Assembly: GCA_022703585.1 (NCBI GenBank)
Contig: JAKLDJ010000002.1
Coordinates: forward strand, 283,413-347,412
DNA length: 64,000 nt
Reading direction: 5' to 3'
From: Candidatus Omnitrophota bacterium
Lineage (GTDB): Bacteria > Omnitrophota > Gorgyraeia > Zapsychrales > JAKLDJ01
Shown: piece after piece, positions 4,528 through 28,865 of the stretch
Position numbering within the stretch: the first letter of the stretch is position 1
Layout: the number at the start of each line of letters is the position of its first letter
Program-made: the position numbers and the translations under genes
The notes under the pieces: generated by a model
What the model was told of the DNA's origin: nothing
The model's database searches: none
What the model saw: the letters and a program-made list of their open reading frames with translations, nothing else

Positions 4528-4551
4528 GAATTTTCCGTAGGTATAACTGGC

Positions 4552-15925: not shown

Positions 15926-17934
15926 TGCCCATCTCCTCTCTTTATGTGACGTACCGGCCGGAAAGGATATTTCCCTTCTTTTTTACCGGCATAATATCCG
16001 TCGTAACCGAATTGAAAGTTCACACCCCACCCAAACGTATCTCCGTAGGTCGTCGAAGACCAGTAAAAACCAAGCGGCGCGGTTTTGGTCCCGGGGAAAA
16101 ATTTTTTATGGAACCAGCCGCCGTCCTTAAAAGAAAGGTCCATGAGCGAACCGATCTCCCGGATCGTCGGCAAGCGCCAATCGTTATGGCCGCCTAAATT
16201 TAATTCCTGGCAATGTTTCATCGCCTCTTCCCAGTTTAATTCCGGGCCCTCGTCTTTTTTCCACATGAGGTTCGTATTCAAATCACTGACCGTGCCGTCA
16301 TTGTTATCGGTAAAAGCATAGTGTTCCATATCGCCGAAATTCAAGCTTAAGCCCCCGCGCACCGCGCGCACGGGATAATAAAAACTTTTTAAGTAGCAGA
16401 TCGCGCAACCATAGGCAAAATAAACGCCCCAGGCAAAGATCGGCTCTTTATTATTCGAATCCTTAGACCAATAAAACGCCGGCAGGCAGTCCGGGAAAAA
16501 CTTTCTGTCGGTCGCCGGAGTCTGGCCGTTATAATCGACCATCATGCGCAACTCTTCGCGATTGGGCAACCGCCAATCACGAAAGCCGCCGTATCCTTTT
16601 TTATTTAACTCCTTGATAAAGCCTTGGGCATCGTCCCATGTATAGCTATCCCCTTTATAATTAACATCGTTTTGGCAAGGAGATTTAATTTCCCAAATGA
16701 GCCCGGTGTTGTTATCACGGACCATACGAAAACCTTTTTTCCAGTCAGCCTTTTCATCCAGCTCCCTGCCGCCTTCGGCTAACTTGGTAAACGAAAGCGG
16801 ATTGGTGACATAGGAACCGTCCTGGCCGTAATAACGGCCGCCTTTTTTCGGGGCCGCGATGATCCCGCCCTCGTCGGTATAACATCTTTTCTGTCCGGAA
16901 TCGGGTAATTTGAATTGAACCTTCGAGGCAACCTGCGACGGATAGACATTGCGCACCGCGCGGAACAATAGCTTGGCATTCTTACTGGCATAATAACCGT
17001 CGTAGCCGAAACAAAAATTCGTGACCCAGACATAAATTCCTTCATAGGGTGTTGAGGAAAAATAATGCAGCAACGGCGGTTTCAGTCCTTCCGCCGGAAA
17101 GAAATTCTTGTAATACCACCAGCCGCTTTCATAATTAAGATTCAAAATAGAATTCAGTTCTTTTAAATTCGGCAGGCGCCAGTCGGATTGCCCAGCCAAG
17201 CGCATATCTTTGCATACTTTAAGAGCCGAATACCAATCCATGCGCTCATTTTCGCCTTTTTGCCACATAAGACCGGTTAAGGTATCGGTAATCGTCCCGT
17301 CGGTATTATCCTTAAAACGCGACGCGTCAGACTTGCCGAAATTTTTATCGTACCCGCCCCGAACCGCACGCACATAACGCTCGCTTAACGGCGCATAGCA
17401 GATGCCGCTGCCTAGGCCAAAAAAGATACCCCAGACAAAAGGTTTTTGCATATTGTAGGGTACAATCGTCCAATAAAAATCACTTTGGCAATTGGGAAAA
17501 TATCGGGTATCGACCGCAGGCCCGGTTTTACCGTAATCGAGGATCGAACGCAGCTCATCTTTGTTCGGCAGGCGCCAATCGGAAAACCCGCCGTATTTCT
17601 TTTTATTAAGTTCCTTAATATATACGTCTTGGGCTTTTTTCCAGGTATACCGGTCTTCGCAGTAATTCACATCGCCTTTTTGGGGAGATTTGACCTCCCA
17701 GATGAGGCCGGTATTATTATCCAGAACAGCGCGATAACCGTCTTGCCAATCGGAAGAATCCGCAATGGGTTTACCGGTTTTTCCCAGCTTGGTAAAAGAC
17801 ATGGGGTTTACCACAAAACAGCCGTTCTGGCCCCAGAGTTCATCCTGCGGCGTAACCATGATCTCCTTGCCTTCCTTATCATAGCACCGGATATTTCCGG
17901 CATCGGGCAGGCGGAATATTTTTGATTCCTTCAT
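15922..17934 (-). CDS. DUF1566 (Lcl C-terminal domain) repeat protein
   Basis: Four copies of the DUF1566 signature ...DNNTGLIWE.KSP...Y.W..A......LN...YGGF.DWRLP...EL..... For example DWRLPNKDELRSIL, DWRLPNLKELNSIL, DWRLPNREELRMMV and DWRLPTIREIGSLM. Confidence 0.7.
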   Translation of the reverse strand: MKESKIFRLPDAGNIRCYDKEGKEIMVTPQDELWGQNGCFVVNPMSFTKLGKTGKPIADSSDWQDGYRAVLDNNTGLIWEVKSPQKGDVNYCEDRYTWKKAQDVYIKELNKKKYGGFSDWRLPNKDELRSILDYGKTGPAVDTRYFPNCQSDFYWTIVPYNMQKPFVWGIFFGLGSGICYAPLSERYVRAVRGGYDKNFGKSDASRFKDNTDGTITDTLTGLMWQKGENERMDWYSALKVCKDMRLAGQSDWRLPNLKELNSILNLNYESGWWYYKNFFPAEGLKPPLLHYFSSTPYEGIYVWVTNFCFGYDGYYASKNAKLLFRAVRNVYPSQVASKVQFKLPDSGQKRCYTDEGGIIAAPKKGGRYYGQDGSYVTNPLSFTKLAEGGRELDEKADWKKGFRMVRDNNTGLIWEIKSPCQNDVNYKGDSYTWDDAQGFIKELNKKGYGGFRDWRLPNREELRMMVDYNGQTPATDRKFFPDCLPAFYWSKDSNNKEPIFAWGVYFAYGCAICYLKSFYYPVRAVRGGLSLNFGDMEHYAFTDNNDGTVSDLNTNLMWKKDEGPELNWEEAMKHCQELNLGGHNDWRLPTIREIGSLMDLSFKDGGWFHKKFFPGTKTAPLGFYWSSTTYGDTFGWGVNFQFGYDGYYAGKKEGKYPFRPVRHIKRGDGQ

Positions 17935-18329
17935 AAAGCCTCCATGACCTCAATTAAGATCCCGTCGGGATCTTTGATAAAAAAATAGCAAGCTCCGCTG
18001 TCAAACATGCGCAAATCCGTCGCAAAGGAAATCTTTGCTTTCTTAAATTTCCGATAGGCGCCCGCGATATCCGAAACCTCGACGGAAAAATGTTTAACGC
18101 CTAGAGTCCGCAAATCATTGCCTAAGGTCTTGCGATAGCCGGGAAGCGGTTTATATTTTTTAAACTCAAAAAGCTCTAAAACGATATCGCCTTTCTTCAA
18201 AAGCGCGATGGTAAACCCTTTATCCGGATACGCGTATTTTTTGACGCAGCGCAGATTAAAATATTTGCGGTAAAACGCAACCGATTTATTTAAGCTCGAA
18301 ACACTCAGAGCAATATGGCCAAGTTTCAA
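17931..18329 (-). CDS. VOC-family (glyoxalase/bleomycin-resistance/dioxygenase fold) protein
   Basis: MKLGHIALSVSSLNKSVAFYRKYF...VLELFEF is a typical glyoxalase-I-like betaalphabetabetabeta start. 132 aa. Confidence 0.7.
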   Translation of the reverse strand: MKLGHIALSVSSLNKSVAFYRKYFNLRCVKKYAYPDKGFTIALLKKGDIVLELFEFKKYKPLPGYRKTLGNDLRTLGVKHFSVEVSDIAGAYRKFKKAKISFATDLRMFDSGACYFFIKDPDGILIEVMEAL

Positions 18330-18347
18330 AGCTGTCCCTTTAGATCT

Positions 18348-20000
18348 TTAAACTTTGCCCAACCCAAACGGCGGATAGACTTCTGATTCCACCACAACAT
18401 CAATGAGTGCCGCCTTGCCGCATTTCAAGGCCTGTTGGAATACGGCGTCGAAATCTTCAAGTTTCTCCACGTGCGCGCCAAAGGCCTTGCACGCCTCGGC
18501 ATATTTGACGAAGTCGGGATTGGTAAAATGCATAAACGCTTCTTCGCCGAAAAGATTAAGGAGAAACTTCTTTATAACATTAAACTCGCCGTTATTAAAA
18601 ATGACCCAGATGACCGGAATATCATATTGAATCGCCGTCATCAGCTCAAAGCCTGCCATTTGGTACGCCCCGTCGCCGCAACCGCAGACGACCGTCCTCT
18701 TGGGATCAGAGCATTTGACCCCGATGGTGCCGTTGACATGACTGGCCATGGGCCCGAAACTGCCCGGATTCTGATAAAGCTGATGTTTGTCTAAATGCAG
18801 GTAGCAATTCAGCCACAGCATATGCGAACCGGCATCGCCCATGATAATCGCATTTTCGGGAAGATTCTTGGAGATGGCCCTGACTAAGTCCGCAGGATGT
18901 ATTTTTGTCCCCGGAGCTTGAACCGGCAAGTCATACCATTTTTCTTTTACAATTTTCTTGGGGGCAACTTTTCCGACGGATTTGGAGATTTCATTTGTTA
19001 ATGCGATAATCGCCGGTTTGGCATCGCTCACAACAGGAAAATCGGCCTTGTACACTTTACCGATTTCGTGGCGGTCGATGTTAACGTGAATAAGCGTCTT
19101 TCCTTTAAAAAGATCCGCCTTAAAGCCGTATGTCGCATTCTGGGCAAAGGAATTGCCGATAGTCAACACGAGTTTGGATTCGTTTAAATATTTATTGGCA
19201 CCCGGATCCCCGGACGTCCCGTAAACCCCCAGGCATAAAGGATGATTTTCGGGAATAATCCCTTTCGCGTCCATAGTCGCCGTAAAGGGTATCTGGAATT
19301 TTTCCAAGAGCTCCTGGGCTTCTTTTTCGCCGTGACTGCGGATAATGCCGTAGCCTAAGATTGCCATGACCTGTTCATTATTATTAATGGCGTTGCTCAA
19401 AGCATCGGCCGCCGCTTTGATCTCGGCTTGATTGGGGAGCACCGGTTTAATATTCAATTTAACTTCACGGAAATTAGGAACCTGGGCAATGGTTATATCT
19501 TTGGGAACATGGATGTGCACCGGGCCCGGCCGGCCGTCGTAGGCCAAATTGATCGCCTCTTCTAAAATATCGCAGGTGGACGCCGGGTCTTCGATGATAA
19601 AAGATTTTTTGGTAGTCGCGTTAAACATCTTTGGGGAATCCGGGGTCCGGCTTAAACCCGTGGATTCATTGAGCGCGCCCTTGCCCCGGTCACGTGCCGA
19701 CGTATAACCGGAGATGGCCAAAACCGGCAGAGAATCGGAGAATGCAACCGCGAGACCGGAAAAAAGATTAAACTCACCCGGGCCGCCGGTAGCAAAACAC
19801 ACCCCCAGTTTATCGGAAAACATCGCATAGCCACACGCCATAAAAGAGGCTGCCTGCTCATTGCGGATAATAACGGTCTTGATCTGTTTTGACCGCTTAA
19901 GCGCAAGGAGCATCGAACCGTTGACCTGCCCCGAACCGCCAAAAACATGGTCAACGCCAACATGTTCAAGCGTTTTTACAATCGCCTCATTGACATCCAT
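18348..20000 (-). CDS. thiamine-diphosphate-dependent enzyme (acetolactate-synthase/benzoylformate-decarboxylase family)
   Basis: N-terminal Pyr domain GVDHVFGGSGQ...CFATGGPGEFNLFSGLAVAFSDSLPVLAISG. C-terminal ThDP-binding GDGA...N motif (CGCGDGAYQMAGFELMTAIQYDIPVIWVIFNNGEFN). Confidence 0.8.
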   Translation of the reverse strand: MDVNEAIVKTLEHVGVDHVFGGSGQVNGSMLLALKRSKQIKTVIIRNEQAASFMACGYAMFSDKLGVCFATGGPGEFNLFSGLAVAFSDSLPVLAISGYTSARDRGKGALNESTGLSRTPDSPKMFNATTKKSFIIEDPASTCDILEEAINLAYDGRPGPVHIHVPKDITIAQVPNFREVKLNIKPVLPNQAEIKAAADALSNAINNNEQVMAILGYGIIRSHGEKEAQELLEKFQIPFTATMDAKGIIPENHPLCLGVYGTSGDPGANKYLNESKLVLTIGNSFAQNATYGFKADLFKGKTLIHVNIDRHEIGKVYKADFPVVSDAKPAIIALTNEISKSVGKVAPKKIVKEKWYDLPVQAPGTKIHPADLVRAISKNLPENAIIMGDAGSHMLWLNCYLHLDKHQLYQNPGSFGPMASHVNGTIGVKCSDPKRTVVCGCGDGAYQMAGFELMTAIQYDIPVIWVIFNNGEFNVIKKFLLNLFGEEAFMHFTNPDFVKYAEACKAFGAHVEKLEDFDAVFQQALKCGKAALIDVVVESEVYPPFGLGKV

Positions 20001-20059
20001 GAGATTACCCCTTTTTTTGAATAATTATTTTTTGCCGGTGCGTCCCGGCATTAAGGAAT

Positions 20060-20290
20060 CTATTCGCCCGGTTTTTTCTGGCTGAATTTCCCCACAGCGA
20101 CCTTAGGCGGCCGTTTGGAAAACAGTATTCCGTCCGCTGCCGCATTGTCAAGCGTATAGCCGTCAAAAAAAAGATAAATCCGGTCCTTCGGAACCTTAGT
20201 AACTTCCGATAGAATCGTTATGAATTTATCGGCAACAATTTCTTTTTGCTCATCGGTAAGTTCTAAGGACTGGACAGTGATCGCAGGCAT
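20060..20290 (-). CDS. 4-oxalocrotonate tautomerase-family protein
   Basis: 76 aa with Pro directly after the initiator Met (MPAITVQS...). The size and beta-alpha-beta layout are typical of 4-OT family tautomerases. Confidence 0.7.
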   Translation of the reverse strand: MPAITVQSLELTDEQKEIVADKFITILSEVTKVPKDRIYLFFDGYTLDNAAADGILFSKRPPKVAVGKFSQKKPGE

Positions 20291-20321
20291 AAGTTCCCCC
20301 TTATGTTTAGTATAGGGACGT

Positions 20322-20353
20322 TCCGCCCGCGCCGCTTTAGCGGCGCGGGCGGA
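20322..20353. repeat. GC-rich perfect 14-bp stem / 4-nt loop hairpin (tccgcccgcgccgc-ttta-gcggcgcgggcgga)
   Basis: Read directly from the sequence. Lies in the 82-bp gap between the DJ-1-like gene and the tautomerase gene. No adjacent U-tract on either strand. Confidence 0.6.
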
Positions 20354-20372
20354 GCGTTATTGTTTGATACTT

Positions 20373-21146
20373 TTACTTTGCAGCAAGAACTTCAACTATC
20401 TTCTTGCCATAAGCAATTGAAGATTCGACTGATGTTCCGGTAATAAACGGCCAATCAAAACAAACTTCAGGATTGTCGCGATTAGCTTTGTAATTAGAAA
20501 CACATGTACCCTTAGGCCCTACCGCATCCCTGACCAAGTGCTCCATCGGCCAGAGAAAACCGGGGGTATGCACATCCGTACCTTTATTGTCCGGGGTTGC
20601 GCCGTACAAATCGTAGGTAAAATCCCATTCCGGGCCATAGAAATCCCATGAAGCCGGATGAGCCGCAATTCTTTTTCCCCAGATAACGCTCTTCATATCG
20701 AGCTGCGGATCACGCAAGAAAACAAGCGTAGAAACCGAATAGCACAGCGCGCCGACGAGCTTATCGGTGCGAAGCGCATCGATAATCAGTTTGTGCAGAT
20801 TCCAATTATTGGCCATGTCGATCATCGCTCCCAGGCCGCCGGTCAAGACGATGCAATCATAATTCGCCATCTTGGCATCCTTGAACTTGATCGGTTTTGA
20901 CCACTCGTTGCCGTCTGTCAACTCTTTAATGCGCTTGCAGACATCCGGCGGATTGGTCTTGGCATTAATGACCGGATCCAGGAAATCAGGATTCACGCTT
21001 ACCGCTAAGGGAAGCGGCTTCTTTCCAAGCGGTGTCGCCAGAGTAAGTTCATGGCCGGCCGCCTTGATAATATCCCACGGCGCCTGAAGCTCTTCACCCC
21101 ATGTCCCGTAATTCGTTGCGCAAATCAATACTTTCTTCTTTCCCAT
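20373..21146 (-). CDS. DJ-1/PfpI-like (class I glutamine amidotransferase-like) protein
   Basis: MGKKKVLICATNYGTWGEELQAPWDIIKAAGHELTLATP...CIVLTGGLGAMIDMANN...LVGALCYSVSTL has the layout of the DJ-1/ThiJ fold. Start moved to the internal ATG at 21146, which has an AGGAGG RBS 5 nt upstream. Confidence 0.7.
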   Translation of the reverse strand: MGKKKVLICATNYGTWGEELQAPWDIIKAAGHELTLATPLGKKPLPLAVSVNPDFLDPVINAKTNPPDVCKRIKELTDGNEWSKPIKFKDAKMANYDCIVLTGGLGAMIDMANNWNLHKLIIDALRTDKLVGALCYSVSTLVFLRDPQLDMKSVIWGKRIAAHPASWDFYGPEWDFTYDLYGATPDNKGTDVHTPGFLWPMEHLVRDAVGPKGTCVSNYKANRDNPEVCFDWPFITGTSVESSIAYGKKIVEVLAAK

Positions 21147-21166
21147 TTCTTCCTCCTTTTTGTTTT

Positions 21167-21517
21167 TTACTTTTTCTGCTGTTGACCTTTTTCCATCCAC
21201 GGAAAATCCAATTTTATCGGGCTGAATATATCGATCGCCTCTGTCTGTCCGATAGCGGTAAACTCATGCGGAACATCAGGAGGGATGAAATACGCATCTC
21301 CGGCTTCCAGCACCGAGGTTTCGTTACCGATCATCATTTTAAAACCGCCCTTGATCACATACCCGAATTGTTCTTGGGAATGCGTATGGAGCTTGACCAT
21401 ACTCTTATCAGCCATATCCCAATGCTGTGCATTCATCTTGGTGCATTCGCCCAGATACTGACGAATGACACCGCCACCCATATCCATCTTCTCTAATTTT
21501 TTCCGGTGAACAAACAT
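21167..21517 (-). CDS. cupin-domain protein
   Basis: LHTHSQEQFGYVIKGGFKMMIGNETSVLEAGDAYFIPPDVPHEF gives the two cupin motifs G(X)5HXH...G(X)5PXG(X)2H. Confidence 0.7.
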   Translation of the reverse strand: MFVHRKKLEKMDMGGGVIRQYLGECTKMNAQHWDMADKSMVKLHTHSQEQFGYVIKGGFKMMIGNETSVLEAGDAYFIPPDVPHEFTAIGQTEAIDIFSPIKLDFPWMEKGQQQKK

Positions 21518-21532
21518 GCCACCTCCCCTTTT

Positions 21533-21820
21533 TTAAATTCCTTCCAAAAAAACGGCATTGGTCACAGCAGACCCATGCCGTAGCTTCTTTGCTTCGCTAT
21601 ATTCCGGAGAATGCCACCACTGCCTTGCCTGTTCCATGCTTTTGAATTCGAGAATAATCATGCGTTTAGGAGTCCAATTCCCTTCTAAAACTTCTGTTGC
21701 GCCGCCCCGGGCCAGCGGTTTGCCGCCGTAGGCTAAGATCGTTGGCGCCCCCGCTTTTTTATATTCTTCATAACCGGCGAGATCCTTGACATCAATATCC
21801 AAAATAACGTACGCTGCCAT
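21533..21820 (-). CDS. DUF1330-domain protein
   Basis: 95 aa: MAAYVILDIDVKDLAGYEEYKKAG...YGGKPLARGG...VLEGNWTPKRMIILEFKSMEQARQWWHSPEY. This matches the DUF1330 family pattern (stress-responsive dimeric alpha+beta barrel). Confidence 0.65.
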   Translation of the reverse strand: MAAYVILDIDVKDLAGYEEYKKAGAPTILAYGGKPLARGGATEVLEGNWTPKRMIILEFKSMEQARQWWHSPEYSEAKKLRHGSAVTNAVFLEGI

Positions 21821-22387
21821 TTATTTCTTAGCCGAAAGCAATTCAATAATTTTCTGGGCAAAAAGATTGCAATGGCCACCGCTACGGGCGGTAACCAGAT
21901 CCCCGTCAACAACCACATCCTCATCGCAATACACCGCGCCCATGTTTTTGGCATCCCCAAGAAGATTATTATGCACAACCACCTTGCGTCCCTTGACTAA
22001 TTCCGGACAAGGCGCGACGAGCCACAGGCCATGGCAGATAATTCCTTTAATAATATTTTTATCGGCAAAAGCCCTTTTAAGGAATTCCGTCGCCGGAGGA
22101 AGTTTTTTGATATCTTCCGTATATCTTAAGCGGTCTGCGACCATACCCGCCGGGACAATAATGGCAGAATAACTTTTTAAAGTCGCATCGTCCATGTCAA
22201 AACTCTCCCGGCATTCAAAGGGCGCGCGGTATTCATGTCCGGAAAAAGTCAGCGCCGTCTGCCCCCAAAGACGGGTCAAAAAATGCACTTCCATTCCTTC
22301 TTCGGCAAAACGAAATTTATAATACCAAATTTCAGGCTCGTAATAATCCCCCTCGATCAAAATGCCGATTTTTTTTCCTTTAAGCAT
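21821..22387 (-). CDS. DJ-1/PfpI-family protein (cytoplasmic paralog)
   Basis: MLKGKKIGILIEGDYYEPEI...AIIVPAGM...KGIICHGLWLVAP has the nucleophile-elbow Cys. Start at the internal ATG at 22387, with an AAAGGGG RBS. Confidence 0.75.
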   Translation of the reverse strand: MLKGKKIGILIEGDYYEPEIWYYKFRFAEEGMEVHFLTRLWGQTALTFSGHEYRAPFECRESFDMDDATLKSYSAIIVPAGMVADRLRYTEDIKKLPPATEFLKRAFADKNIIKGIICHGLWLVAPCPELVKGRKVVVHNNLLGDAKNMGAVYCDEDVVVDGDLVTARSGGHCNLFAQKIIELLSAKK

Positions 22388-22388: not shown

Positions 22389-23951
22389 CTAAACCCCTTT
22401 CGGCTTACCCTTATAGCGAACCGCAAGCATCGTGATATCGTCCGATTGCGGCGCGCCGTTGGCAAAGGCAAAGACCTCCTCGCGGACCTTTCCGATCATT
22501 TCTTTAATATCCTTGTCTTTCTGCTGCATGATGCATGCCTTGAGGCCGGATTCGGAAAACATCTTGCGCTCCAGGTTCATGGCCTCGGTCACTCCGTCGG
22601 TATATAGGAAAATAGTGTCTCCAGGATTGAGTTTATTGTTTATATTCTCGCACTTGGCATTTTCCATAACCCCCACCACAAATCCCCCCGGGACCTTGAT
22701 AAAATCAACTTCTCCGTCTTTACCGATAACTAACGGCGGGTTATGCCCGGCATTGCAATATTGCAGTTCACCGGTTTCGATGTTTAACAGCACACAGAAA
22801 ACCGTGACAAAAAGGCAGGTTTGATTATCCGGATAAAGGATGTTATTGACCCGAGCCAATGTTTCAGCAGCCGAAAATCCCTGTTTGGCCTCGGTTTTGA
22901 TAAGCGCCTTGCTGATAGCCATAAAAAGGGCTGCCGGGACTCCCTTACCCGAAACATCCCCAATAACAAAACATAAATGTTTATCGTCGACAAAGAAAAA
23001 ATCATACAGATCGCCGCCCACCTCTTTGGCCGGGTCCATCATGGCAAAAATATCAAATTCTTTTCTCTGGGGGAACACGCTGGGCAACATGCTCATCTGA
23101 ATTTCTTGAGCAATGCGCAATTCGCTTTCGATGCGTTCCCGGGCTTCGGTCTCCGCCTTAAGATTCTCCATGAAGCGCTTGATGCTTAGCTGCATCAATT
23201 CAATCGCCAACGCCGGGTCCTGGGCAAAGAATTTAATCACCTCATCCCGGCCCATAGTGTAGGCTTCGATATCTTCTTCGCATAATGCGGAGGCCGTCCG
23301 CACTTTGAAGGGAGAAAAAATCCCCATCTCTCCGATAACATCCCCTGATTTAATAAACTTATTAATTTCTACTAATTTGATAGCACCTTTTTTTATATAA
23401 AACATCCTGTCGGCTTTATCGCCCGCTTTAAAAAGAAAATCGCCTTTCTTATATGTCTCTTGTTTCATCAGATCGACGGGCCAGCGGCAGGAAGTTTGCA
23501 CGGCAGAGAGGTCTTTGATGGCGGGTTTCTGGATATTGGTCACCATGCAGCTATTAAATTTAACCAAAGTAAGAACATTCTTTCCGTTCTCTCGTCGATA
23601 TCTGACCTCATCCATGATTTTACGCATCATAAATATCCCCAGGCCGCCTATTTTTCGTTCTTCTAAAGGCGCATGGATATCCGGCTCGGGCAATGAGAGC
23701 GGATCAAAAGGGATCCCGGAATCAATAATCTCGATCTCGAAACAGTTGTCCTGGTTTACATAGGTCACGGCCAACTCGCCGTCTTTCCCGGGATAGGCGT
23801 AGTTGATGACGTTGACCAGGGCTTCCTCGCAGGCAATCTGGATCTTATTGATCTGGTCTTTGACAAAACCCTGGCGGGATGCCCCTTCCTTGATAAAGGT
23901 AAGCATCTTTTGAAGATTTTCTAATTTTGCAGAAAAGGCTAAACGTTCCAT
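22389..23951 (-). CDS. three-domain partner-switching regulator: RsbW/SpoIIAB-like HATPase kinase + cNMP-binding + PP2C (SpoIIE/RsbU-type) phosphatase
   Basis: Residues 1-130 are an anti-sigma Ser kinase fold (ACEEALVNVINYAY...IEIIDSGIPFD...GGLGIFMMRKIMDEV). The middle is CAP-family cNMP binding (FLFKAGDKADRMFYIKKGAIKLVE...GEMGIF). The C-terminus is PP2C (MLPSVFP...GGDLYDFFFVDDKHLCFVIGDVSGKGVPAALFMA...DGVTEA). Confidence 0.8.
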   Translation of the reverse strand: MERLAFSAKLENLQKMLTFIKEGASRQGFVKDQINKIQIACEEALVNVINYAYPGKDGELAVTYVNQDNCFEIEIIDSGIPFDPLSLPEPDIHAPLEERKIGGLGIFMMRKIMDEVRYRRENGKNVLTLVKFNSCMVTNIQKPAIKDLSAVQTSCRWPVDLMKQETYKKGDFLFKAGDKADRMFYIKKGAIKLVEINKFIKSGDVIGEMGIFSPFKVRTASALCEEDIEAYTMGRDEVIKFFAQDPALAIELMQLSIKRFMENLKAETEARERIESELRIAQEIQMSMLPSVFPQRKEFDIFAMMDPAKEVGGDLYDFFFVDDKHLCFVIGDVSGKGVPAALFMAISKALIKTEAKQGFSAAETLARVNNILYPDNQTCLFVTVFCVLLNIETGELQYCNAGHNPPLVIGKDGEVDFIKVPGGFVVGVMENAKCENINNKLNPGDTIFLYTDGVTEAMNLERKMFSESGLKACIMQQKDKDIKEMIGKVREEVFAFANGAPQSDDITMLAVRYKGKPKGV

Positions 23952-23958
23952 AAATTTT

Positions 23959-24279
23959 CTATTCGTTAAAAGCTTCCTGAGTGGTCATGAAGGTGTCCAG
24001 GCCGCTCATTTTAATAACATTGAGAACCCCTTCTTGCGCTCCGATCAGGAAAATGTGCGCGTCCACGCCGACTTTCTGCTTGGCAAAAATGATGACGCGC
24101 AACCCGGCGCTGGAAATATATTCCAGATCTTTTGCAAAAAATACCAGCTTTGAGATTTTTTGCCCGATATTCTTCTTTAATTCCGCCTGTAAGACTTCGG
24201 CGTTTGAGGCATCCAAACGGCCGCACAGTTCGACTTTTAAAGTTTCACCCGTACATGATACCGAAAATTTTGATTCCAT
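23959..24279 (-). CDS. STAS-domain anti-sigma-factor antagonist (SpoIIAA/RsbV-like)
   Basis: 106 aa. YISSAGLRVIIF carries the conserved phosphorylatable Ser of SpoIIAA-type STAS proteins. Confidence 0.8.
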   Translation of the reverse strand: MESKFSVSCTGETLKVELCGRLDASNAEVLQAELKKNIGQKISKLVFFAKDLEYISSAGLRVIIFAKQKVGVDAHIFLIGAQEGVLNVIKMSGLDTFMTTQEAFNE

Positions 24280-24309: not shown

Positions 24310-26442
24310 TTAACGCTTTCCTTTACCAACCAGGATAACCACTGAACGCGGCCCGACTAAGAATTCGGACTGATTCTTCAACTTAACCTCTTTGCCGACT
24401 TCCCAGATATCCTGCGGGCTAACGGCGTCAGTGTTCACAGACACATGCCACGACATCCAATCGTGAAGTTTGGGCAATTCGAAACCGCGCATCTCCCAAT
24501 GCATATTCATCGCGACATAAATCGTATTATCCTTAACCGTCCCTCCCTTGGCATGGCCTCCGCAAAGCATAAACGCCAACGTTCGAGCCTGGGCCGACCA
24601 ATCCGCATTCCAGGCCTGGGTACCATGCCAGGAAATATCGGCAAAGCCGCTGCCGGTATAATCTCTGTTTTGAAAATGGGTCCTGCTTCTTAAAACCGGA
24701 TGGGCCCGACGGAAAGCGATCATCTTGCTAAAGAAATCAAAAAGCTCCCGGTTTTTTCCCAAAAGCCCCCAGTCTATCCACGAAATCTCATTATCCTGGC
24801 AATAGGCATTATTGTTACCGAACTGGGTATTAGCCATTTCATCCCCCGAGAGGATCATCGGGGTCCCCTGGCTGGTCAGCAACATGGCAACGGCATTTTT
24901 CATCTGTTTGATACGCAGACGATTGATTCGGGGATCATCGGTTTCCCCTTCATGCCCGCAATTCCAACTGTAGTTATCATTACAGCCGTCGGAACTATTT
25001 TCTCCGTTTGCCTCATTATGTTTATCATTAAAAGAAACCATGTCCTTTAAGGTAAAGCCGTCGTGGGCCGTAATAAAGTTAACCGAAGCGCAGGCTCCTC
25101 GCATCTGTCCCTGGTATAAATCCGGCGATCCCTGCAGCCGCTGGGCCATACATCCCACCATCCCGGCATCGCCTTTTAAGAATTTTCGCAAGTCATCTCT
25201 GTATTTACCGTTCCATTCCGCCCAACGTCCCCAGGCAGGAAAACAACCGACCTGGTAAAGTCCGCCTGCATCCCAGGCCTCGGCGATCAGCTTACATTTA
25301 CCCAAAATGGGATCAAAGGCCAGGGTTTCCAAAAGCGGCGGGCTATGCATCGGGGCACCGTTTTGGTCACGGCCCAGAATAGAGGCAAGATCAAAACGAA
25401 AACCATCCACGTGATAATCGGCAGCCCAATAGCGCAAACAGTCAAGGATCATGTTGCGCACGATCGGATTGTTGCAGTTTAAGGTATTGCCGCATCCGCT
25501 AAAATTAAAGTAGTATCCGTCAGGAGTTAAAAGGTAGTAAGTTTTATTATCAATGCCGCGGTAAGAAATATAGGGCCCGCGCTCATTACCTTCGGCGGTA
25601 TGATTAAAGACAACATCTAAGATAACTTCAATGCCGTTTTTGTGAAGTTCTCTAATCAAGGTTTTACATTCGTCCACCTGCATTCCGAATTTACCGGTGG
25701 CGGCATATCCTGCCTTGGGGGCAAAGAATCCGACATTGCTGTAGCCCCAGTAATTCATCAGCATCTTTCCCGTCGTCGGGGAAGTGCGCGAATTCTCAAA
25801 TTCGTCAAATTCGTGAATCGGCATCAGCTCAACACAATTAACGCCCAGTTCCTTCAAATACGCTATCTTTTCACGGATTCCGGAAAAGGTACCGGGGTGT
25901 TTGACCCCCGAAGAGCTATGCTGGGTAAACCCGCGCACGTGCATTTCATAAATAATCAAATCTTCGATGGGGGTTTCCAGGGGGTGGTCATTTTCCCAGT
26001 CAAAATCGTCAAAGCAGATGCGGGCGCGATGCTGATACATGTCATCCCAGTTGGGCGTCTTGCCCCAGACATCCCTGCCGCCGATGACTTTGGCATACGG
26101 ATCCATAAGCACTTTAGTTTTGTCAAAACGATGTCCCTCGCGGGCGTCAAACGGCCCGTCCATATAAAAACCGTACTCAAGATTTTCATGGTCCAGGTCA
26201 AAAACCACCATGGTAAAAACATTTCCGATTCTAAACTCGTCTTTAAAAGGAATCACACAAAAAGGCTTGGGTTCATGTTTGTTAAATAGGGCCAGCTTGC
26301 ACGACGTGGCCGCGTGGGAATAGACCGAAAAATTGACCCCGCCGGGGACAATGGTGGCGCCGAAGGGCAAGGGTTTACCCATGCGCAAACGGAATTTTCC
26401 GCAGTCACAGACATGCGTCGGATGCAAGTCAACTCGATACAT
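24310..26442 (-). CDS. glgX: glycogen debranching enzyme GlgX / isoamylase (GH13, CBM48 N-terminus)
   Basis: YEMHVRGFT, GVNCVELMPIHEF, VILDVVFNHT, GFRFDLASIL and EAWD catalytic-region motifs. 710 aa. Confidence 0.85.
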   Translation of the reverse strand: MYRVDLHPTHVCDCGKFRLRMGKPLPFGATIVPGGVNFSVYSHAATSCKLALFNKHEPKPFCVIPFKDEFRIGNVFTMVVFDLDHENLEYGFYMDGPFDAREGHRFDKTKVLMDPYAKVIGGRDVWGKTPNWDDMYQHRARICFDDFDWENDHPLETPIEDLIIYEMHVRGFTQHSSSGVKHPGTFSGIREKIAYLKELGVNCVELMPIHEFDEFENSRTSPTTGKMLMNYWGYSNVGFFAPKAGYAATGKFGMQVDECKTLIRELHKNGIEVILDVVFNHTAEGNERGPYISYRGIDNKTYYLLTPDGYYFNFSGCGNTLNCNNPIVRNMILDCLRYWAADYHVDGFRFDLASILGRDQNGAPMHSPPLLETLAFDPILGKCKLIAEAWDAGGLYQVGCFPAWGRWAEWNGKYRDDLRKFLKGDAGMVGCMAQRLQGSPDLYQGQMRGACASVNFITAHDGFTLKDMVSFNDKHNEANGENSSDGCNDNYSWNCGHEGETDDPRINRLRIKQMKNAVAMLLTSQGTPMILSGDEMANTQFGNNNAYCQDNEISWIDWGLLGKNRELFDFFSKMIAFRRAHPVLRSRTHFQNRDYTGSGFADISWHGTQAWNADWSAQARTLAFMLCGGHAKGGTVKDNTIYVAMNMHWEMRGFELPKLHDWMSWHVSVNTDAVSPQDIWEVGKEVKLKNQSEFLVGPRSVVILVGKGKR

Positions 26443-26789
26443 TATGCCTCCTTTTTGAATGCCTCTAACGCTGCGGCAACGGATTCAAAAGACTTAAAGA
26501 AATTATTAAAGCCGGTCATCTCCATCACGTCCTTGATTTCAGCCGAAAGCCCGCTAAGGGCCAGGATGCCGTTTTGGGTCGAAAGCTGCTTGGCCGCCAT
26601 CAATAAAAGGCGCAGGCCAGCGCTGGAAATATAGCTGCACTCTTTCAGATCCAACACCAGCGAGATCTTATCCGAAGACAAAAAAGGCAGAATCTTTTCC
26701 TGGGCTTCATTAACGGTATTTCCGTCTAGGCTACCGGATAGCTGAATAATCGTGGCGCCGTCTTTGGTAGTAGTTTTTATCTCCATCAC
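26442..26789 (-). CDS. STAS-domain anti-sigma-factor antagonist (second paralog)
   Basis: 115 aa with YISSAGLRLLLMAA. A 1-nt overlap with the glgX start suggests translational coupling. Confidence 0.8.
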   Translation of the reverse strand: MMEIKTTTKDGATIIQLSGSLDGNTVNEAQEKILPFLSSDKISLVLDLKECSYISSAGLRLLLMAAKQLSTQNGILALSGLSAEIKDVMEMTGFNNFFKSFESVAAALEAFKKEA

Positions 26790-26797: not shown

Positions 26798-28618
26798 TTA
26801 CCCGACAGGGACAAGCCGGACTTTGATCTTCGGCCTGTAATTTAAATTCGGCAGGTTCACGGTTAATTTCTCGGCGTCAAAATTCTTCCAGGGATTACCA
26901 TCAATCCAAACTTCCGATATGCGCACGCTGCCCTTGGGGAGAATATCCGGCTCGACCCGCAGCACATCACCGGGGAAACCCTGCGGCAAAGGCTTGAAAT
27001 AAAGATCCAGCGGTTTTTTGGTATACAGCAAATTCTGGTATATTTGAGCCAAATAACAAAGTTCGATAGAATGGTAACAGGCCATGGAATGGCTGCCTTT
27101 AAGCCGTTCGGTCCCCAGTAAAAACGGCAGGCCGTTGTTGAGCACGTTAAAATATACCGCGCCGTCGTCATGATCAAGATAAAAGGCATTGTAGAAAGAC
27201 GCCGATTCGCGCCCAAGCCGCAGGTATTCGGGGTCTTTGAGTACGCCGTGCATGATCATATAGGCAAGAATAGCCTGTTCCTGCTGCCACCAGGCTTTAC
27301 GGTCATGCCAGACATGGCGATGCCACGTCTCGCCGGGAGCAAGTTCGCGCTCCATCACGTCATACCATCCGCCGCGCTGCACGTCCATGCCGACGGTCGG
27401 CATGATCTGGGCGATCTTTTTTGCAAAATCGACATATTCCTTCTTGGCCACCAAGCTGTTGATCCTTAAAAGGTTCCAGGCAATCTTCAGGTTGTGCCCG
27501 ATAACGCCTCGATTCTGCTGCCATCCCCAGGTCTTGTCGTGGCTCCAGTCTTCGTGAAATTTTTCCTGGACAAACGGACTATGCTCGTAATCCGGGAAAT
27601 ATTTAGCAATACAATCCGCGGTACTGACGAGAAAATCACGGTATTTCGGATCGCCCGTCGCTAACCATAGATTGATCAGATACGCCGGGGCATGGTCTCC
27701 GAGAGAGTTCCAATTTTTACGCGCCTTATTCCTTCCTAAGGATTCACTGCGAGGATCTAACTTAAGAGGATCAATATGCGAAAAATAACCGCCGTTTTTC
27801 TTATCCAGAAAAAAACGGTCAAACAAATCAATGGTCATCTTAATATCTTTCATGATCGCCGGATCGCCGCTAATGCGATAGGTCTGGGTAGGGCCGGCCA
27901 AAGCATAAATCTGCTCGTACATCGGAACTCCGTCATAATCATCGCCAAATTCGGAGGCAAATACTTTATGTTCACGGTCATGCTTGACATCAATGCCGTG
28001 ATACCAATAAATAATATTCTCGTCGGTATCATAGAAACGCATGTGGTCGCGCAGATATTGCGTTCCTTTTTCCGCCGCCTCCAGAAACCGGTCTTCTCCG
28101 GTCAACAAAAACGCTGAGGCCATCCCGTAAACCATGCGCGAGATTGTATCCGTTTCCTGGCGGTGTTCGGGTTTACGTTCCCCGGTCAAAGAAAGCATGG
28201 TGCGATAATTTTTGTAATCAATATTCTGCGGGCCGCCAAATTCGGCTTTAATATAGAAATCGGCGATACTGACCGCCTGCTTAACCCACCAATCAGCCTC
28301 TTCAAAGCGATACTGGCCTACGCCTTCTCCCGGAAAAACCAGGACTTTAGCGTCAAAATCAAAACCCTTCTTCTCGGGATAGTAGATCCCCAGGATAAAA
28401 AGATACTGGCCTTTGACCAATAACTTATCGAGTTTGCCGGTATAATCACACCAGCCTTCGTGAAGATTGCGCGGCCCCTTAGCATAAGCGGTCTGGGTCA
28501 GCCGGGCAGAAAATTCACGGCCGTCGGTAGTCTTAAGCCCAAGCACTCTTTTCTTAGAGTCGTAACTCGTTACGTAACCTGCGATTGTGTCAGAAAACTC
28601 GAATTTAATCTCGTTCAT
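26798..28618 (-). CDS. (alpha/alpha)6-barrel enzyme, N-acylglucosamine 2-epimerase (AGE)-superfamily-like, with extra N- and C-terminal domains
   Basis: The central about 400 aa are rich in W/Y/H-bearing helical hairpins (YWYHGIDVKHD, WNSLGDHAPAYLINLW, WHDRKAWWQQEQAI). This is consistent with a six-hairpin glycosidase/AGE fold. Assignment by pattern only. Confidence 0.4.
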   Translation of the reverse strand: MNEIKFEFSDTIAGYVTSYDSKKRVLGLKTTDGREFSARLTQTAYAKGPRNLHEGWCDYTGKLDKLLVKGQYLFILGIYYPEKKGFDFDAKVLVFPGEGVGQYRFEEADWWVKQAVSIADFYIKAEFGGPQNIDYKNYRTMLSLTGERKPEHRQETDTISRMVYGMASAFLLTGEDRFLEAAEKGTQYLRDHMRFYDTDENIIYWYHGIDVKHDREHKVFASEFGDDYDGVPMYEQIYALAGPTQTYRISGDPAIMKDIKMTIDLFDRFFLDKKNGGYFSHIDPLKLDPRSESLGRNKARKNWNSLGDHAPAYLINLWLATGDPKYRDFLVSTADCIAKYFPDYEHSPFVQEKFHEDWSHDKTWGWQQNRGVIGHNLKIAWNLLRINSLVAKKEYVDFAKKIAQIMPTVGMDVQRGGWYDVMERELAPGETWHRHVWHDRKAWWQQEQAILAYMIMHGVLKDPEYLRLGRESASFYNAFYLDHDDGAVYFNVLNNGLPFLLGTERLKGSHSMACYHSIELCYLAQIYQNLLYTKKPLDLYFKPLPQGFPGDVLRVEPDILPKGSVRISEVWIDGNPWKNFDAEKLTVNLPNLNYRPKIKVRLVPVG

Positions 28619-28685: not shown

Positions 28686-28713
28686 AAAGATGAGTTAATA
28701 ATAACTCATCTTT
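28686..28713. promoter_or_regulatory. perfect 12-bp inverted repeat AAAGATGAGTTA-ataa-TAACTCATCTTT (candidate operator)
   Basis: Read directly from the sequence. Lies in the divergent 284-bp intergenic region, 68 bp upstream of the AGE-like gene start and 190 bp upstream of the Rrf2 gene. Confidence 0.5.
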
Positions 28714-28865
28714 AAAAAAACCGATAATTTCCGGCTAAACTTTTTAATCAAGAAACCCATCGATGACCGCCCCCGTAGATGCCTATTTTTCCTGAATGCC
28801 TAAAAAGGTTTAGGTATTATAACATTTTATTGGAATTACACAAGAATTTTAGCAATACCCTGCGG

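What the first reader, a model, noticed from the sequence alone, without database searches (positions are those of the whole stretch)
22389..24279. Self-contained cyclic-nucleotide-gated partner switch: RsbW-like kinase, cNMP-binding and PP2C phosphatase in one polypeptide next to its STAS substrate
A single 520-aa protein carries an N-terminal anti-sigma-type Ser kinase (HATPase_c), a central CAP-family cNMP-binding domain and a C-terminal SpoIIE/RsbU-type PP2C phosphatase. The gene immediately upstream encodes a STAS antagonist with the conserved phospho-Ser context (YISSAGLR). So both the writer and the eraser of STAS phosphorylation are fused and plausibly switched by cAMP or cGMP. A CHASE2 adenylate cyclase lies in the same co-directional gene run. 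I see no sigma factor nearby. In known fusions the HATPase domain usually follows the PP2C domain. The N-terminal kinase arrangement with an intercalated cNMP domain is not one I recognise as described.
Basis: partly seen in the sequence, partly recalled or inferred. Interest (0 to 1): 0.75.

Follow-up and report, generated by a model that had tools for sequence, protein, structure and literature searches.

The report
cNMP-sensing STAS kinase/phosphatase fusion enzyme
One Omnitrophota protein joins a serine kinase, a cyclic-nucleotide sensor and a serine phosphatase that probably act on two small STAS proteins in a glycogen-debranching operon, an untested variant of known bacterial switches (SypE/SypA, the cyanobacterial icfG cluster).

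Summary
Window 22389-23951 (-) encodes a 520-aa protein with three domains: an RsbW-type kinase (6-131), a cNMP-binding domain (165-245) and a SpoIIE/RsbU-type PP2C phosphatase (322-513). A STAS gene lies 7 nt upstream. The ATP-binding, cNMP phosphate-cassette and metal-binding residues are present, and most are invariant in 68 homologues.

The interpretation needs trimming.
- The layout (N-terminal kinase, central sensor, C-terminal phosphatase) is that of Vibrio fischeri SypE, with cNMP-binding in place of REC.
- In sister Omnitrophota genomes the kinase is a separate gene.
- The model shows a disordered kinase-sensor tether but one continuous helix from sensor into phosphatase. So cNMP most likely gates the phosphatase, and the kinase is merely tethered.
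- The CHASE2 cyclase lies 18 kb away and is not part of the operon.
- No sigma factor is in the window.

The operon is AGE-like, STAS2, GlgX, STAS1, then the fusion. It has the gene content of the Synechocystis icfG cluster. It recurs with other phosphatase sensors (dCache-HAMP, REC-GAF, 5TMR-LYT).

The fused three-domain order is rare: about 3-4 clusters at 50% identity among 1.84 billion representatives. I rate it a new variant of a known kind, of moderate interest.

The parts
22389..23951 (-). Fusion gene, 520 aa: RsbW-type Ser kinase, cNMP-binding domain and SpoIIE/RsbU-type PP2C phosphatase
   Evidence: ORF. Pfam. 100% identical public protein P0001 from Candidatus Omnitrophota. Found on 19 contigs.
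23559..23936 (-). Kinase domain (residues 6-131): N-box EEALVNVINYAY, G1 IDSGIPFD, G2 GGLGIFMM
   Evidence: Pfam HATPase_c_2, 4.8e-28. Aligns with B. subtilis RsbW 6M36 and SpoIIAB 1TH8. The motif residues are invariant or at least 90% conserved in A2. Foldseek matches RsbW 6m37.
23490..23546 (-). Flexible tether (residues 136-154) between kinase and sensor; this is where the gene is split in sister genomes
   Evidence: pLDDT below 50 across 136-154. Length and sequence vary in A1. Split genes are seen in L005, L090 and L091.
23217..23459 (-). CAP-family cNMP-binding domain (residues 165-245) with phosphate-binding cassette GEMGIFSPFKVRTASA
   Evidence: Pfam cNMP_binding, 1.9e-14. Aligns with the cAMP-binding proteins GlxR 4CYD/3R6S and Mtb Crp 3D0S, and with PKG domains. 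G207, E208 and R218 are invariant; T219 and A220 are at least 90% conserved.
23088..23216 (-). Continuous helix (residues 246-288) linking the sensor's C-helix to the phosphatase; candidate coiled-coil signal transducer
   Evidence: DSSP helix H246-288 in the model. Strongly conserved, e.g. R259, E262, N263, E272, S276-R279. Aligns with the RssB linker plus PP2C, 3EQ2. Mechanism by analogy with PMC12143880.
22413..22988 (-). PP2C (SpoIIE/RsbU-type) phosphatase domain (residues 322-513) with metal-ligand Asp D314, D332, D452, D504/D505
   Evidence: Pfam SpoIIE, 5.3e-50. PDB sequence and fold matches to Rv1364c, RssB, SiaA and SpoIIE. The Asp residues are invariant.
23959..24279 (-). STAS1 (106 aa), predicted substrate; predicted phospho-site Ser57 (codon 24109-24111)
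   Evidence: Pfam and TIGR00377. Alignment to SpoIIAA Ser58. An adjacent STAS gene is present in all three clades that carry the fusion.
24310..26442 (-). GlgX glycogen debranching enzyme (710 aa), between the two STAS genes
   Evidence: TIGR02100 equivalog, 716.8 bits against a cut-off of 640.9. Pfam CBM_48 and Alpha-amylase. 65-86% identity in related loci.
26442..26789 (-). STAS2 (114/115 aa); its stop overlaps the GlgX start by 1 nt (TAATG); predicted phospho-site Ser56 in 115-aa numbering
   Evidence: Pfam STAS, 6.7e-20. Junction sequence. Within the Y[IV]SSAGLR motif, SSAGLR is invariant in 115 homologues. STAS2-GlgX adjacency in L005, L027, L087-L090, L092-L095.
26798..28618 (-). First gene of the operon: 606-aa protein of the N-acylglucosamine 2-epimerase (six-hairpin) superfamily, specific function unknown
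   Evidence: Pfam GlcNAc_2-epim, 2.4e-15. No NCBIfam hit. Weak PDB hit to cellobiose 2-epimerase. Syntenic and 64-88% identical in related loci.
21821..22387 (-). DJ-1/PfpI-family gene starting 1 nt after the fusion's stop (TAG-C-ATG); conserved downstream partner
   Evidence: Pfam. Junction. Synteny in L004, L005, L087-L090.
28816..28824 (-). Extended -10 promoter element TGTTATAAT upstream of the operon, conserved in 5 loci
   Evidence: Alignment A3 has the TG.TATAAT columns invariant. Coordinates.

Best explanation
The 520-aa protein is a bifunctional enzyme that sets the phosphorylation state of the co-encoded STAS proteins (STAS1 Ser57 and probably STAS2 Ser56). It works as follows.

1. 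The N-terminal RsbW-type kinase writes the mark. It hangs on a flexible tether of about 20 residues and is probably constitutively active.
2. The C-terminal PP2C phosphatase erases the mark. It is the regulated half.
3. A cyclic nucleotide binds the central CAP-type domain. cAMP is the more likely ligand, since a K/T-type class III cyclase is encoded in the window.
4. The signal passes down a conserved helix of about 43 residues into the phosphatase's regulatory switch. This follows the mechanism shown for RsbU and RssB-type phosphatases.
5. The cNMP level therefore sets the ratio of phospho-STAS to STAS.

The protein is a gene fusion of a three-gene module: STAS, then an RsbW-like kinase, then a cNMP-PP2C phosphatase. 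That module also exists unfused in sister genomes.

The module sits inside a conserved carbohydrate operon (AGE-like, STAS2, GlgX, STAS1, kinase/phosphatase, DJ-1 and onward). This operon is the counterpart of the Synechocystis icfG cluster. The output is therefore most likely control of glycogen or carbon catabolism by the unphosphorylated or phosphorylated STAS proteins. It could act directly on an enzyme such as GlgX, or through a sigma factor encoded elsewhere.

Shown here: domains, motifs, synteny, fusion/fission and model topology. Inferred: catalytic activities, ligand identity, the direction of cNMP control, and the output.
For: Domains and thresholds. Residue-level matches to RsbW/SpoIIAB, cAMP-bound CRP-family proteins and PP2Cs. 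Catalytic and ligand residues invariant or at least 90% conserved in 68 homologues.

An adjacent STAS gene is present in all three divergent clades with this architecture: Omnitrophota, the GC-rich clade (L084, L086) and the P0158 clade (L096). The phospho-Ser motif core SSAGLR is invariant in 115 STAS2 homologues and aligns with SpoIIAA Ser58.

Tether against rigid helix. Split kinase genes with intact motifs, their own stop, a spacer and a new start. Fused and split forms are interleaved in the tree.

The same operon slot is filled by dCache-HAMP-, REC-GAF- or 5TMR_LYT-SpoIIE phosphatases with a separate kinase. This shows that the sensor belongs to the phosphatase.

Coiled-coil linker mechanism for RsbU/RssB-type phosphatases with exchangeable sensor domains: PMC12143880. 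SypE precedent for a kinase-sensor-phosphatase protein acting on a STAS output protein: PMC10120452, PMC8256260. The icfG cluster has two STAS proteins, an isoamylase, a PP2C and an RsbW-like kinase, with carbon-metabolism phenotypes: PMC12329169. Tight gene junctions, including the 1-nt STAS2/GlgX overlap. A cyclase with a K-x-x-G-D motif and Thr at the second specificity position.
Against: - No biochemical data exist for any family member, and no paper on it was found.
- The monomer model has pTM of only 0.52, so inter-domain geometry is unreliable. A dimer or coiled coil was not modelled.
- In SypE and HsbR the sensor reciprocally controls both activities. A tether does not exclude the same here.
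- Ligand identity (cAMP, cGMP or other) cannot be read from the sequence.
- The STAS-to-GlgX link rests on synteny alone. GlgX in the related loci is 65-86% identical, so most of those loci may be one phylum. Part of the adjacency could be inherited rather than independently maintained.
- Homology of this operon to the Synechocystis genes was not tested by sequence.
Confidence: 0.6

Rival explanations
1. This is a canonical partner switch whose final target is a sigma factor encoded elsewhere. The kinase domain doubles as an anti-sigma factor. Dephosphorylated STAS displaces the sigma factor from it, as with Slr1861/SigC in Synechocystis or RsbW/SigB.
For: Slr1861 of the icfG cluster is both a STAS kinase and an anti-SigC factor, and SigC is not encoded in that cluster (PMC12329169). 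The kinase domain is closest to RsbW and SpoIIAB. In the GC-rich clade an ECF sigma gene lies about 1.3 kb away.
Against: No sigma-factor domain occurs in any ORF of 150 aa or more in 64 kb, nor within +/-10 kb in the Omnitrophota loci. The ECF sigma in the other clade lies beyond a convergent PrsW gene, and a 257-aa ORF follows it directly (the pairing is inference). The module is embedded in a metabolic operon, and STAS2 is translationally coupled to GlgX.
Confidence: 0.25
2. This is a true SypE-like reciprocal toggle. cNMP binding switches the polypeptide between a kinase-on/phosphatase-off state and a kinase-off/phosphatase-on state.
For: SypE and HsbR are described as switching between kinase and phosphatase modes depending on REC phosphorylation. 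Fusion in three clades suggests some benefit from physical coupling.
Against: The kinase is joined by a disordered, poorly conserved tether. Fused and split forms alternate among close relatives. Where the sensor is dCache-HAMP, REC-GAF or 5TMR-LYT, it is attached only to the phosphatase and the kinase is a stand-alone gene.
Confidence: 0.25
3. One catalytic or sensory domain is degenerate. The protein would then be a pseudo-kinase scaffold, or its CAP domain would be a dimerisation module or bind a non-nucleotide ligand.
For: CAP-family domains in CooA, FNR, NtcA and CprK bind other ligands (own knowledge). The distant homologue P0158 has Ala at the G1 glycine. P0036 and P0039 have Met in place of T219.
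Against: The N, G1 and G2 boxes, the PBC Gly-Glu and Arg, and all PP2C metal-binding Asp residues are invariant or at least 90% conserved in 68 sequences down to 48% identity. The PBC matches cAMP-bound GlxR/Crp.
Confidence: 0.07

Closest known systems
Vibrio fischeri SypE / SypA (PMC10120452, PMC8256260)
   Same: One polypeptide carries an N-terminal RsbW-like Ser kinase, a central sensor domain and a C-terminal PP2C Ser phosphatase. It acts on a small single-domain STAS protein (SypA Ser56) encoded in the same polysaccharide-related locus. No sigma factor is involved, and the STAS protein is the output.
   Different: The central domain is a REC receiver in SypE and a CAP-type cNMP-binding domain here. 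No REC was found by Pfam or by a CheY HMM. There are two STAS genes here instead of one. The locus concerns glycogen debranching, not Syp exopolysaccharide. Sequence relatedness to SypE itself was not measured.
Synechocystis sp. PCC 6803 icfG cluster: slr1856 (STAS), slr1857 (isoamylase), slr1859 (STAS), slr1860 (IcfG, PP2C), slr1861 (RsbW-like kinase) (PMC12329169)
   Same: The gene content is the same: two STAS proteins flanking an isoamylase/GlgX gene, plus a PP2C phosphatase and an RsbW-type kinase. In Synechocystis the kinase phosphorylates both STAS proteins, the phosphatase acts on one of them, and mutants have carbon/glucose phenotypes.
   Different: Kinase and phosphatase are separate genes in the order phosphatase then kinase (order inferred from the locus tags). 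The source read does not describe a cNMP domain in IcfG. Slr1861 is also an anti-SigC factor.
Pseudomonas aeruginosa HsbR / HsbA (PMC5085249)
   Same: A bifunctional kinase/phosphatase acts on a STAS protein (HsbA Ser56). Phospho-HsbA binds an enzyme, the diguanylate cyclase HsbD. This is a precedent for a STAS protein regulating an enzyme directly.
   Different: The sensor is a REC domain fed by a phosphorelay. The domain order is REC, PP2C, kinase (own knowledge), not kinase, sensor, PP2C.
RsbU / RssB-type PPM phosphatases with N-terminal sensor domains and coiled-coil linkers (PMC12143880); Rv1364c
   Same: The phosphatase domain's best sequence and fold matches are Rv1364c, RssB, SiaA and SpoIIE. 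A long helix joins the sensor to the phosphatase, as in RsbU and RssB.
   Different: The sensor domains listed in that paper are PAS, REC, GAF and HAMP. Cyclic-nucleotide domains are not mentioned. Rv1364c has the order PAS, PP2C, kinase, STAS (own knowledge).
Myxobacterial PP2C phosphatases with a C-terminal cNMP domain (Mxan4398, sce2855, sce6950; PMC2887360)
   Same: A Ser/Thr phosphatase is combined with a cNMP-binding domain, and regulation by cAMP/cGMP has been proposed.
   Different: Those are PP2c-type (not SpoIIE-like) phosphatases with the cNMP domain at the C-terminus. They lack a kinase domain and a described STAS partner, and they are uncharacterised.

Membership tests
RsbW/SpoIIAB-type GHKL serine kinases (Pfam HATPase_c_2) | Profile match above the curated threshold | tested here: met
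   98.1 bits against a cut-off of 27.4. Sequence and fold matches to RsbW 6M36/6M37 and SpoIIAB 1TH8.
RsbW/SpoIIAB-type GHKL serine kinases (Pfam HATPase_c_2) | Bergerat-fold ATP-binding motifs: N-box Glu and Asn, G1 D-x-G, G2 G-x-G-x-G, and a lid between G1 and G2 | tested here: met
   E43, N47, D77, G79 and G102-G105 are present and invariant in 68 homologues; E42 is at least 90% conserved. A lid segment of about 20 residues has lower pLDDT.
RsbW/SpoIIAB-type GHKL serine kinases (Pfam HATPase_c_2) | Phosphorylates the conserved Ser of a STAS partner | not testable with these tools
   Only inferred, from the adjacent STAS genes with a Ser aligned to SpoIIAA Ser58.
RsbW/SpoIIAB-type GHKL serine kinases (Pfam HATPase_c_2) | Binds and inhibits a sigma factor (anti-sigma function) | not testable with these tools
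   No sigma gene in the window. The rest of the genome was not examined.
CAP/CRP-family cyclic-nucleotide-binding domains (Pfam cNMP_binding) | Profile match above threshold and a beta-roll fold | tested here: met
   53.8 bits against a cut-off of 27.5. The model shows strands across 163-234 followed by helices. Foldseek matches GlxR 3r6s.
CAP/CRP-family cyclic-nucleotide-binding domains (Pfam cNMP_binding) | Phosphate-binding cassette: Gly-Glu ... Arg-(Thr/Ser)-Ala | tested here: met
   GEMGIFSPFKVRTASA aligns with GELSIFDPG-PRTSSA of cAMP-binding GlxR/Crp. G207, E208 and R218 are invariant.
CAP/CRP-family cyclic-nucleotide-binding domains (Pfam cNMP_binding) | Binds cAMP or cGMP; which one | not testable with these tools
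   R-T-A occurs in both cAMP- and cGMP-binding domains (one search lists both). A K/T-type class III cyclase in the window favours cAMP only weakly.
SpoIIE/RsbU-type PPM (PP2C) phosphatases | Profile match and PPM fold | tested here: met
   170.5 bits against a cut-off of 25. Foldseek E 1e-12 to 1e-15 to Rv1364c, RssB, SiaA and SpoIIE.
SpoIIE/RsbU-type PPM (PP2C) phosphatases | Metal-coordinating Asp residues (motifs GGD, GDVSGKG, TDG, DD) | tested here: met
   D314, D332, D452 and D504/D505 are present and invariant.
SypE-type tripartite regulators | Order: N-terminal Ser kinase, central sensor, C-terminal PP2C, next to a STAS substrate | tested here: met
   SypE is described in PMC10120452.
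SypE-type tripartite regulators | The central domain is a response-regulator receiver (REC) | tested here: not met
   Pfam finds cNMP_binding and no Response_reg. The CheY HMM finds nothing in this ORF.
icfG-type cluster (Synechocystis slr1856-slr1861) | Two STAS genes, an isoamylase/GlgX, a PP2C phosphatase and an RsbW-like kinase in one co-directional cluster | tested here: met
   Window genes at 26789-22389. Cluster content from PMC12329169.
icfG-type cluster (Synechocystis slr1856-slr1861) | Orthology of the component proteins to Slr1856/1857/1859/1860/1861 | not tested
Canonical partner-switching module (RsbU-RsbV-RsbW-sigma) | A cognate sigma factor co-encoded with, or demonstrably bound by, the kinase | tested here: not met
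   No Sigma70 or Sigma54 domains in the window, nor in the +/-10 kb flanks of the Omnitrophota homologues. Binding to an unlinked sigma factor was not testable.

The most novel reading that the evidence does not exclude
A bacterial counterpart of the eukaryotic chain from cAMP through protein phosphorylation to glycogen breakdown. cAMP would bind the fusion enzyme and switch on its phosphatase. The resulting change in phosphorylation of STAS2 and/or STAS1 would directly control the co-translated GlgX debranching enzyme (and perhaps the AGE-like enzyme) by protein-protein binding. No sigma factor and no transcription would be involved. The same STAS-GlgX output unit would be re-used with other sensors (dCache-HAMP, REC-GAF, 5TMR-LYT) and, in cyanobacteria, as the icfG cluster.
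Probability: 0.2. Interest if true: 0.8.

Novelty: new variant of a known kind. Interest (0 to 1): 0.45.

Why it matters
Partner-switching phosphatases are known with PAS, REC, GAF and HAMP sensors. A cyclic-nucleotide input has not been characterised, and I found no paper describing one. If confirmed, this would link cAMP/cGMP signalling to STAS phosphorylation in a barely studied phylum (Omnitrophota).

The repeated embedding of two STAS genes around GlgX is mirrored by the still poorly understood icfG cluster of Synechocystis. That gives a concrete, testable hypothesis for what icfG-type modules do: post-translational control of glycogen debranching. The natural fused and split variants also offer a ready-made comparison for asking what tethering a kinase to its opposing phosphatase achieves.

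Tried and rejected
1. Artefactual fusion (frameshift or assembly error): rejected. The identical protein occurs on 19 contigs and 71 clusters share the architecture.
3. CHASE2 cyclase as part of the module: rejected. It is 18 kb away, in a different neighbourhood, and lies outside the 10-kb flanks fetched for homologous loci.
4. Sigma factor in the window: none found after Pfam scans of essentially all ORFs of 150 aa or more.
5. Taxonomy of the GC-rich 50%-identity clade via cluster names: nothing returned. The only hint is L006, labelled Acidobacteriota.
6. STAS2 homologue search to reach other phyla: only 134 candidates, all apparently close relatives. L027 is labelled Fusobacteriaceae, but its GlgX is 67% identical to the window's. 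I therefore do not count it as independent cross-phylum evidence.
7. Shi et al. 1999 (PMC93959), the primary icfG paper, is not held. I relied on PMC12329169 instead.
8. Rfam search of the operon leader: no family.
9. Literature searches for a described cNMP-RsbW-PP2C protein: none found.
10. Complex or dimer structure prediction (STAS with kinase, STAS2 with GlgX, coiled-coil dimer): not possible with the single-chain tool, so not attempted.
Full report
**1. What is there**

The finding's coordinates hold two co-directional genes on the minus strand. Window 22389-23951 encodes a 520-aa protein. Pfam places HATPase_c_2 at residues 6-131 (E 4.8e-28), cNMP_binding at 165-245 (1.9e-14) and SpoIIE at 322-513 (5.3e-50), all well above the curated cut-offs. 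NCBIfam gives sub-threshold matches to RsbW, SpoIIAB, CRP, RssB, SiaA and SpoIIE.

Window 23959-24279 encodes a 106-aa STAS / anti-sigma-antagonist protein, STAS1. Only 7 nt separate its stop from the fusion's start. The identical 520-aa protein is public (P0001). NCBI names it 'SpoIIE family protein phosphatase' from Candidatus Omnitrophota. It lies on 19 independently assembled contigs, so the fusion is real.

**2. Are the domains functional?**

I aligned 13 and then 68 full-length homologues at 48-73% identity (A1 and A2).

- Kinase: N-box (E42/E43, N47), G1 (D77-x-G79) and G2 (G102-G105).
- cNMP phosphate-binding cassette: G207-E208-M209-G210 ... R218-T219-A220.
- PP2C metal ligands: D314, D332, D452, D504/D505.

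All are present in the window protein. Most are invariant in the 68 sequences, and E42, T219 and A220 are at least 90% conserved.

HMMER alignments to solved structures put these residues opposite their counterparts. The matches are B. subtilis RsbW (6M36) and SpoIIAB (1TH8), cAMP-binding GlxR and mycobacterial Crp (GELSIFDPG-PRTSSA against GEMGIFSPFKVRTASA), and Rv1364c and RssB.

An AlphaFold model built on A2 has mean pLDDT 83.8 and pTM 0.52. Its domains match Rv1364c, RssB, SiaA, SpoIIE, RsbW and GlxR by Foldseek. Neither the kinase nor the cNMP pocket looks degenerate.

STAS1 Ser57 aligns with the phospho-Ser58 of SpoIIAA. A second STAS protein, STAS2 (26442-26789), has the same YISSAGLR motif. 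Within the Y[IV]SSAGLR motif, SSAGLR is invariant in 115 STAS2 homologues.

**3. Architecture: how unusual, and how is it wired?**

I searched residues 1-270 (kinase plus sensor) against 1.84 billion 50%-identity representatives. Only 32 hits had E of 1e-30 or better. The kinase-cNMP junction appears only in:

- P0020, the Omnitrophota clade;
- P0079, a GC-rich clade at about 50% identity (one genome copy is labelled Acidobacteriota; L006);
- the fragment P0131;
- P0158, a third clade at 33% identity.

The fused order is therefore rare in sequence space, although well populated within its clades: 71 of the best 120 clusters at 90% identity.

The same domains also occur permuted or with additions. 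P0132 and P0133 run cNMP, PP2C, kinase. P0227 runs REC, cNMP, PP2C. P0224 is a STAS-kinase fusion. In a genome scan, the usual fused form in other phyla is PP2C followed by kinase (10 loci), or else three separate genes.

Two results bear on wiring.

- In the model, residues 136-154 between kinase and sensor are disordered (pLDDT below 50) and variable in length and sequence. Residues 246-288 form one uninterrupted, highly conserved helix running from the sensor's C-helix into the phosphatase.
- In many close Omnitrophota relatives the kinase is a separate 133-145-aa gene. It has intact motifs, its own stop codon, a spacer and a new start for a cNMP-PP2C gene of about 365-410 aa (L005, L090; divergently arranged in L091).

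In a neighbour-joining tree of the cNMP-PP2C part, fused and split forms are interleaved within the Omnitrophota clade.

The sensor is thus structurally and evolutionarily part of the phosphatase, and the kinase is an add-on. This fits the mechanism shown for RsbU and proposed for RssB-type phosphatases with REC, GAF, HAMP and PAS sensors: a coiled-coil linker transmits the sensor state to the PP2C switch helices (PMC12143880). I therefore infer that the cyclic nucleotide gates the phosphatase. Whether it also modulates the kinase, as REC phosphorylation does in SypE and HsbR, remains open.

**4. Genomic context**

The gene belongs to a tightly packed, co-directional operon:

- AGE-like six-hairpin enzyme (26798-28618);
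- STAS2, whose stop overlaps the next start by 1 nt (TAATG);
- GlgX (24310-26442; passes the TIGR02100 equivalog cut-off, 716.8 against 640.9 bits);
- STAS1;
- the fusion;
- DJ-1/PfpI, starting 1 nt after the fusion's stop.

DUF1330, cupin, ThiJ-like, a TPP enzyme, glyoxalase, Lcl_C, another DJ-1 and an MFS transporter follow. This order is conserved in Omnitrophota loci at 59-73% identity of the fusion (L087-L090, L005, L004).

The same operon slot is occupied elsewhere by a stand-alone kinase plus a PP2C phosphatase with a different sensor:

- dCache-HAMP in L092 and L027;
- 5TMR_LYT in L094;
- REC-GAF in L095.

STAS2-GlgX stays adjacent in all of them. GlgX and the AGE-like protein are more conserved (65-86% and 64-88%) than the signalling proteins.

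In the two other clades with the fused architecture, only the STAS gene accompanies the fusion (L084, L086, L096). The minimal conserved unit is therefore STAS plus the fusion. The GlgX association is a feature of the Omnitrophota-type operon.

No sigma factor is encoded anywhere in the window. The CHASE2 cyclase (2254-4527) has F-S-D, K-x-x-G-D, Thr, Asn and Arg in the expected places for an adenylate cyclase (residue roles from my own knowledge). It is 18 kb away, next to FecR, ShlB/POTRA and DUF2490 genes. It is not part of the module.

**5. Comparison with known systems**

- **SypE/SypA.** The domain plan is that of V. fischeri SypE: N-terminal Ser kinase, central REC, C-terminal Ser phosphatase. 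SypE acts on the STAS protein SypA (Ser56), which is the output and has no sigma factor (PMC10120452, PMC8256260). The window protein fails the REC criterion, so it is not a SypE family member. It very probably works like one.
- **icfG cluster.** The operon plan matches the Synechocystis icfG cluster: two STAS proteins (Slr1856, Slr1859), an isoamylase (Slr1857), the PP2C IcfG (Slr1860) and the RsbW-like kinase Slr1861. There the kinase phosphorylates both STAS proteins and IcfG dephosphorylates one. Mutants are impaired in glucose and inorganic-carbon handling, and Slr1861 is also an anti-SigC factor (PMC12329169). I could not test orthology by sequence.
- **HsbR/HsbA.** This system shows that a phospho-STAS protein can regulate an enzyme directly, the diguanylate cyclase HsbD (PMC5085249).
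- **cNMP plus PP2C.** Such combinations have been noted only as uncharacterised myxobacterial proteins with a different order and subfamily (PMC2887360). Searches for a described cNMP-RsbW-PP2C protein found nothing.

**6. Verdict**

The best explanation (confidence about 0.6) is a cNMP-regulated phosphatase with a tethered RsbW-type kinase. Together they set the phosphorylation state of the adjacent STAS proteins within an icfG-like glycogen-debranching operon. The main rivals are:

- a classic partner switch onto an unlinked sigma factor (about 0.25);
- full reciprocal toggling of both activities by cNMP (about 0.25; compatible with the main model apart from the kinase step).

Novelty: a new variant of a known kind. 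The sensor is new for a SypE-like or RsbU-like enzyme, and the fusion order is rare. Interest is moderate (0.45). Domain swapping on PP2C phosphatases is expected. The cAMP-to-STAS-to-GlgX hypothesis is attractive and directly testable, but it currently rests on synteny alone.

Noticed in passing
window 28686-28713 (-), T-run to about 28676; also L087, L089, L090 and L005 upstream of their AGE-like genes: The 5' leader of the operon has a terminator-like hairpin followed by T6-7, lying 27-70 nt before the AGE-like start codon. Its position is conserved but not its sequence in 5 loci (dG -12 to -18 kcal/mol). This suggests transcription attenuation. No Rfam family matches, and the region between promoter and hairpin is poorly conserved.
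   Followed up: partly
window 28816-28843 (-); divergent Rrf2 gene at 28903-29376 (+): An invariant extended -10 element (TGnTATAAT) and a conserved TTAGG(C/T)A just downstream of it sit in the intergenic region shared with a divergently transcribed Rrf2-family regulator. The Rrf2 gene is syntenic in L001, L089 and L090, so it is a candidate transcriptional regulator of the operon.
   Followed up: partly
window 15323-22387 (-): A conserved gene block lies downstream of the fusion: three DJ-1/PfpI-family genes, a ThiJ-like gene, a glyoxalase/VOC gene, a cupin, DUF1330 and an acetolactate-synthase-like TPP enzyme. The theme looks like reactive-carbonyl (methylglyoxal/glyoxal) handling coupled to sugar catabolism. 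Syntenic in L087-L090.
   Followed up: no
window 26798-28618 (-): The 606-aa AGE-superfamily protein has an extra N-terminal region of about 140 aa. It has no NCBIfam hit and only a weak PDB match (cellobiose 2-epimerase, 1.7e-5). Yet it is 64-88% identical across loci and always the first gene of the operon. Its function is unknown.
   Followed up: partly
L092 5947-8085; L027 5524-7710; L094 9682-11046; L095 4725-6215: The same STAS2-GlgX-(STAS1)-kinase operon carries SpoIIE phosphatases with different sensors: dCache-HAMP, 5TMR_LYT and REC-GAF. This is a natural series of sensor swaps on one output module.
   Followed up: partly
P0132, P0133, P0227, P0224: Permuted or extended relatives exist: cNMP-PP2C-kinase (533-541 aa), REC-cNMP-PP2C (532 aa) and a STAS-kinase fusion (247 aa).
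   Followed up: no
window 2254-8311 (-): A CHASE2 class III cyclase (K/T-type, predicted adenylate cyclase) is clustered with DUF2490, a FecR-domain protein and a ShlB/POTRA two-partner-secretion-type outer-membrane protein. A DUF2490 gene also sits next to the AGE-like gene in L094.
   Followed up: partly
L027 (record labelled uncultured Fusobacteriaceae MAG): Its GlgX is 67% identical to the Omnitrophota GlgX of the window, with the same operon order and 35% GC. The taxonomic label may reflect mis-binning or horizontal transfer.
   Followed up: no
L084 11584-14171; L086 11617-16293: In the GC-rich clade the STAS + fusion pair is followed by a convergent PrsW-protease gene. After that come an ECF sigma factor gene and large ORFs with no Pfam hit. 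Any link to the switch is untested.
   Followed up: no
window 9151-13865 (-) and 15922-17934 (-): There are two RHS-repeat proteins, two FGE-sulfatase-domain proteins and a 670-aa protein with four Lcl_C domains. All are uncharacterised and lie downstream of the operon block.
   Followed up: no
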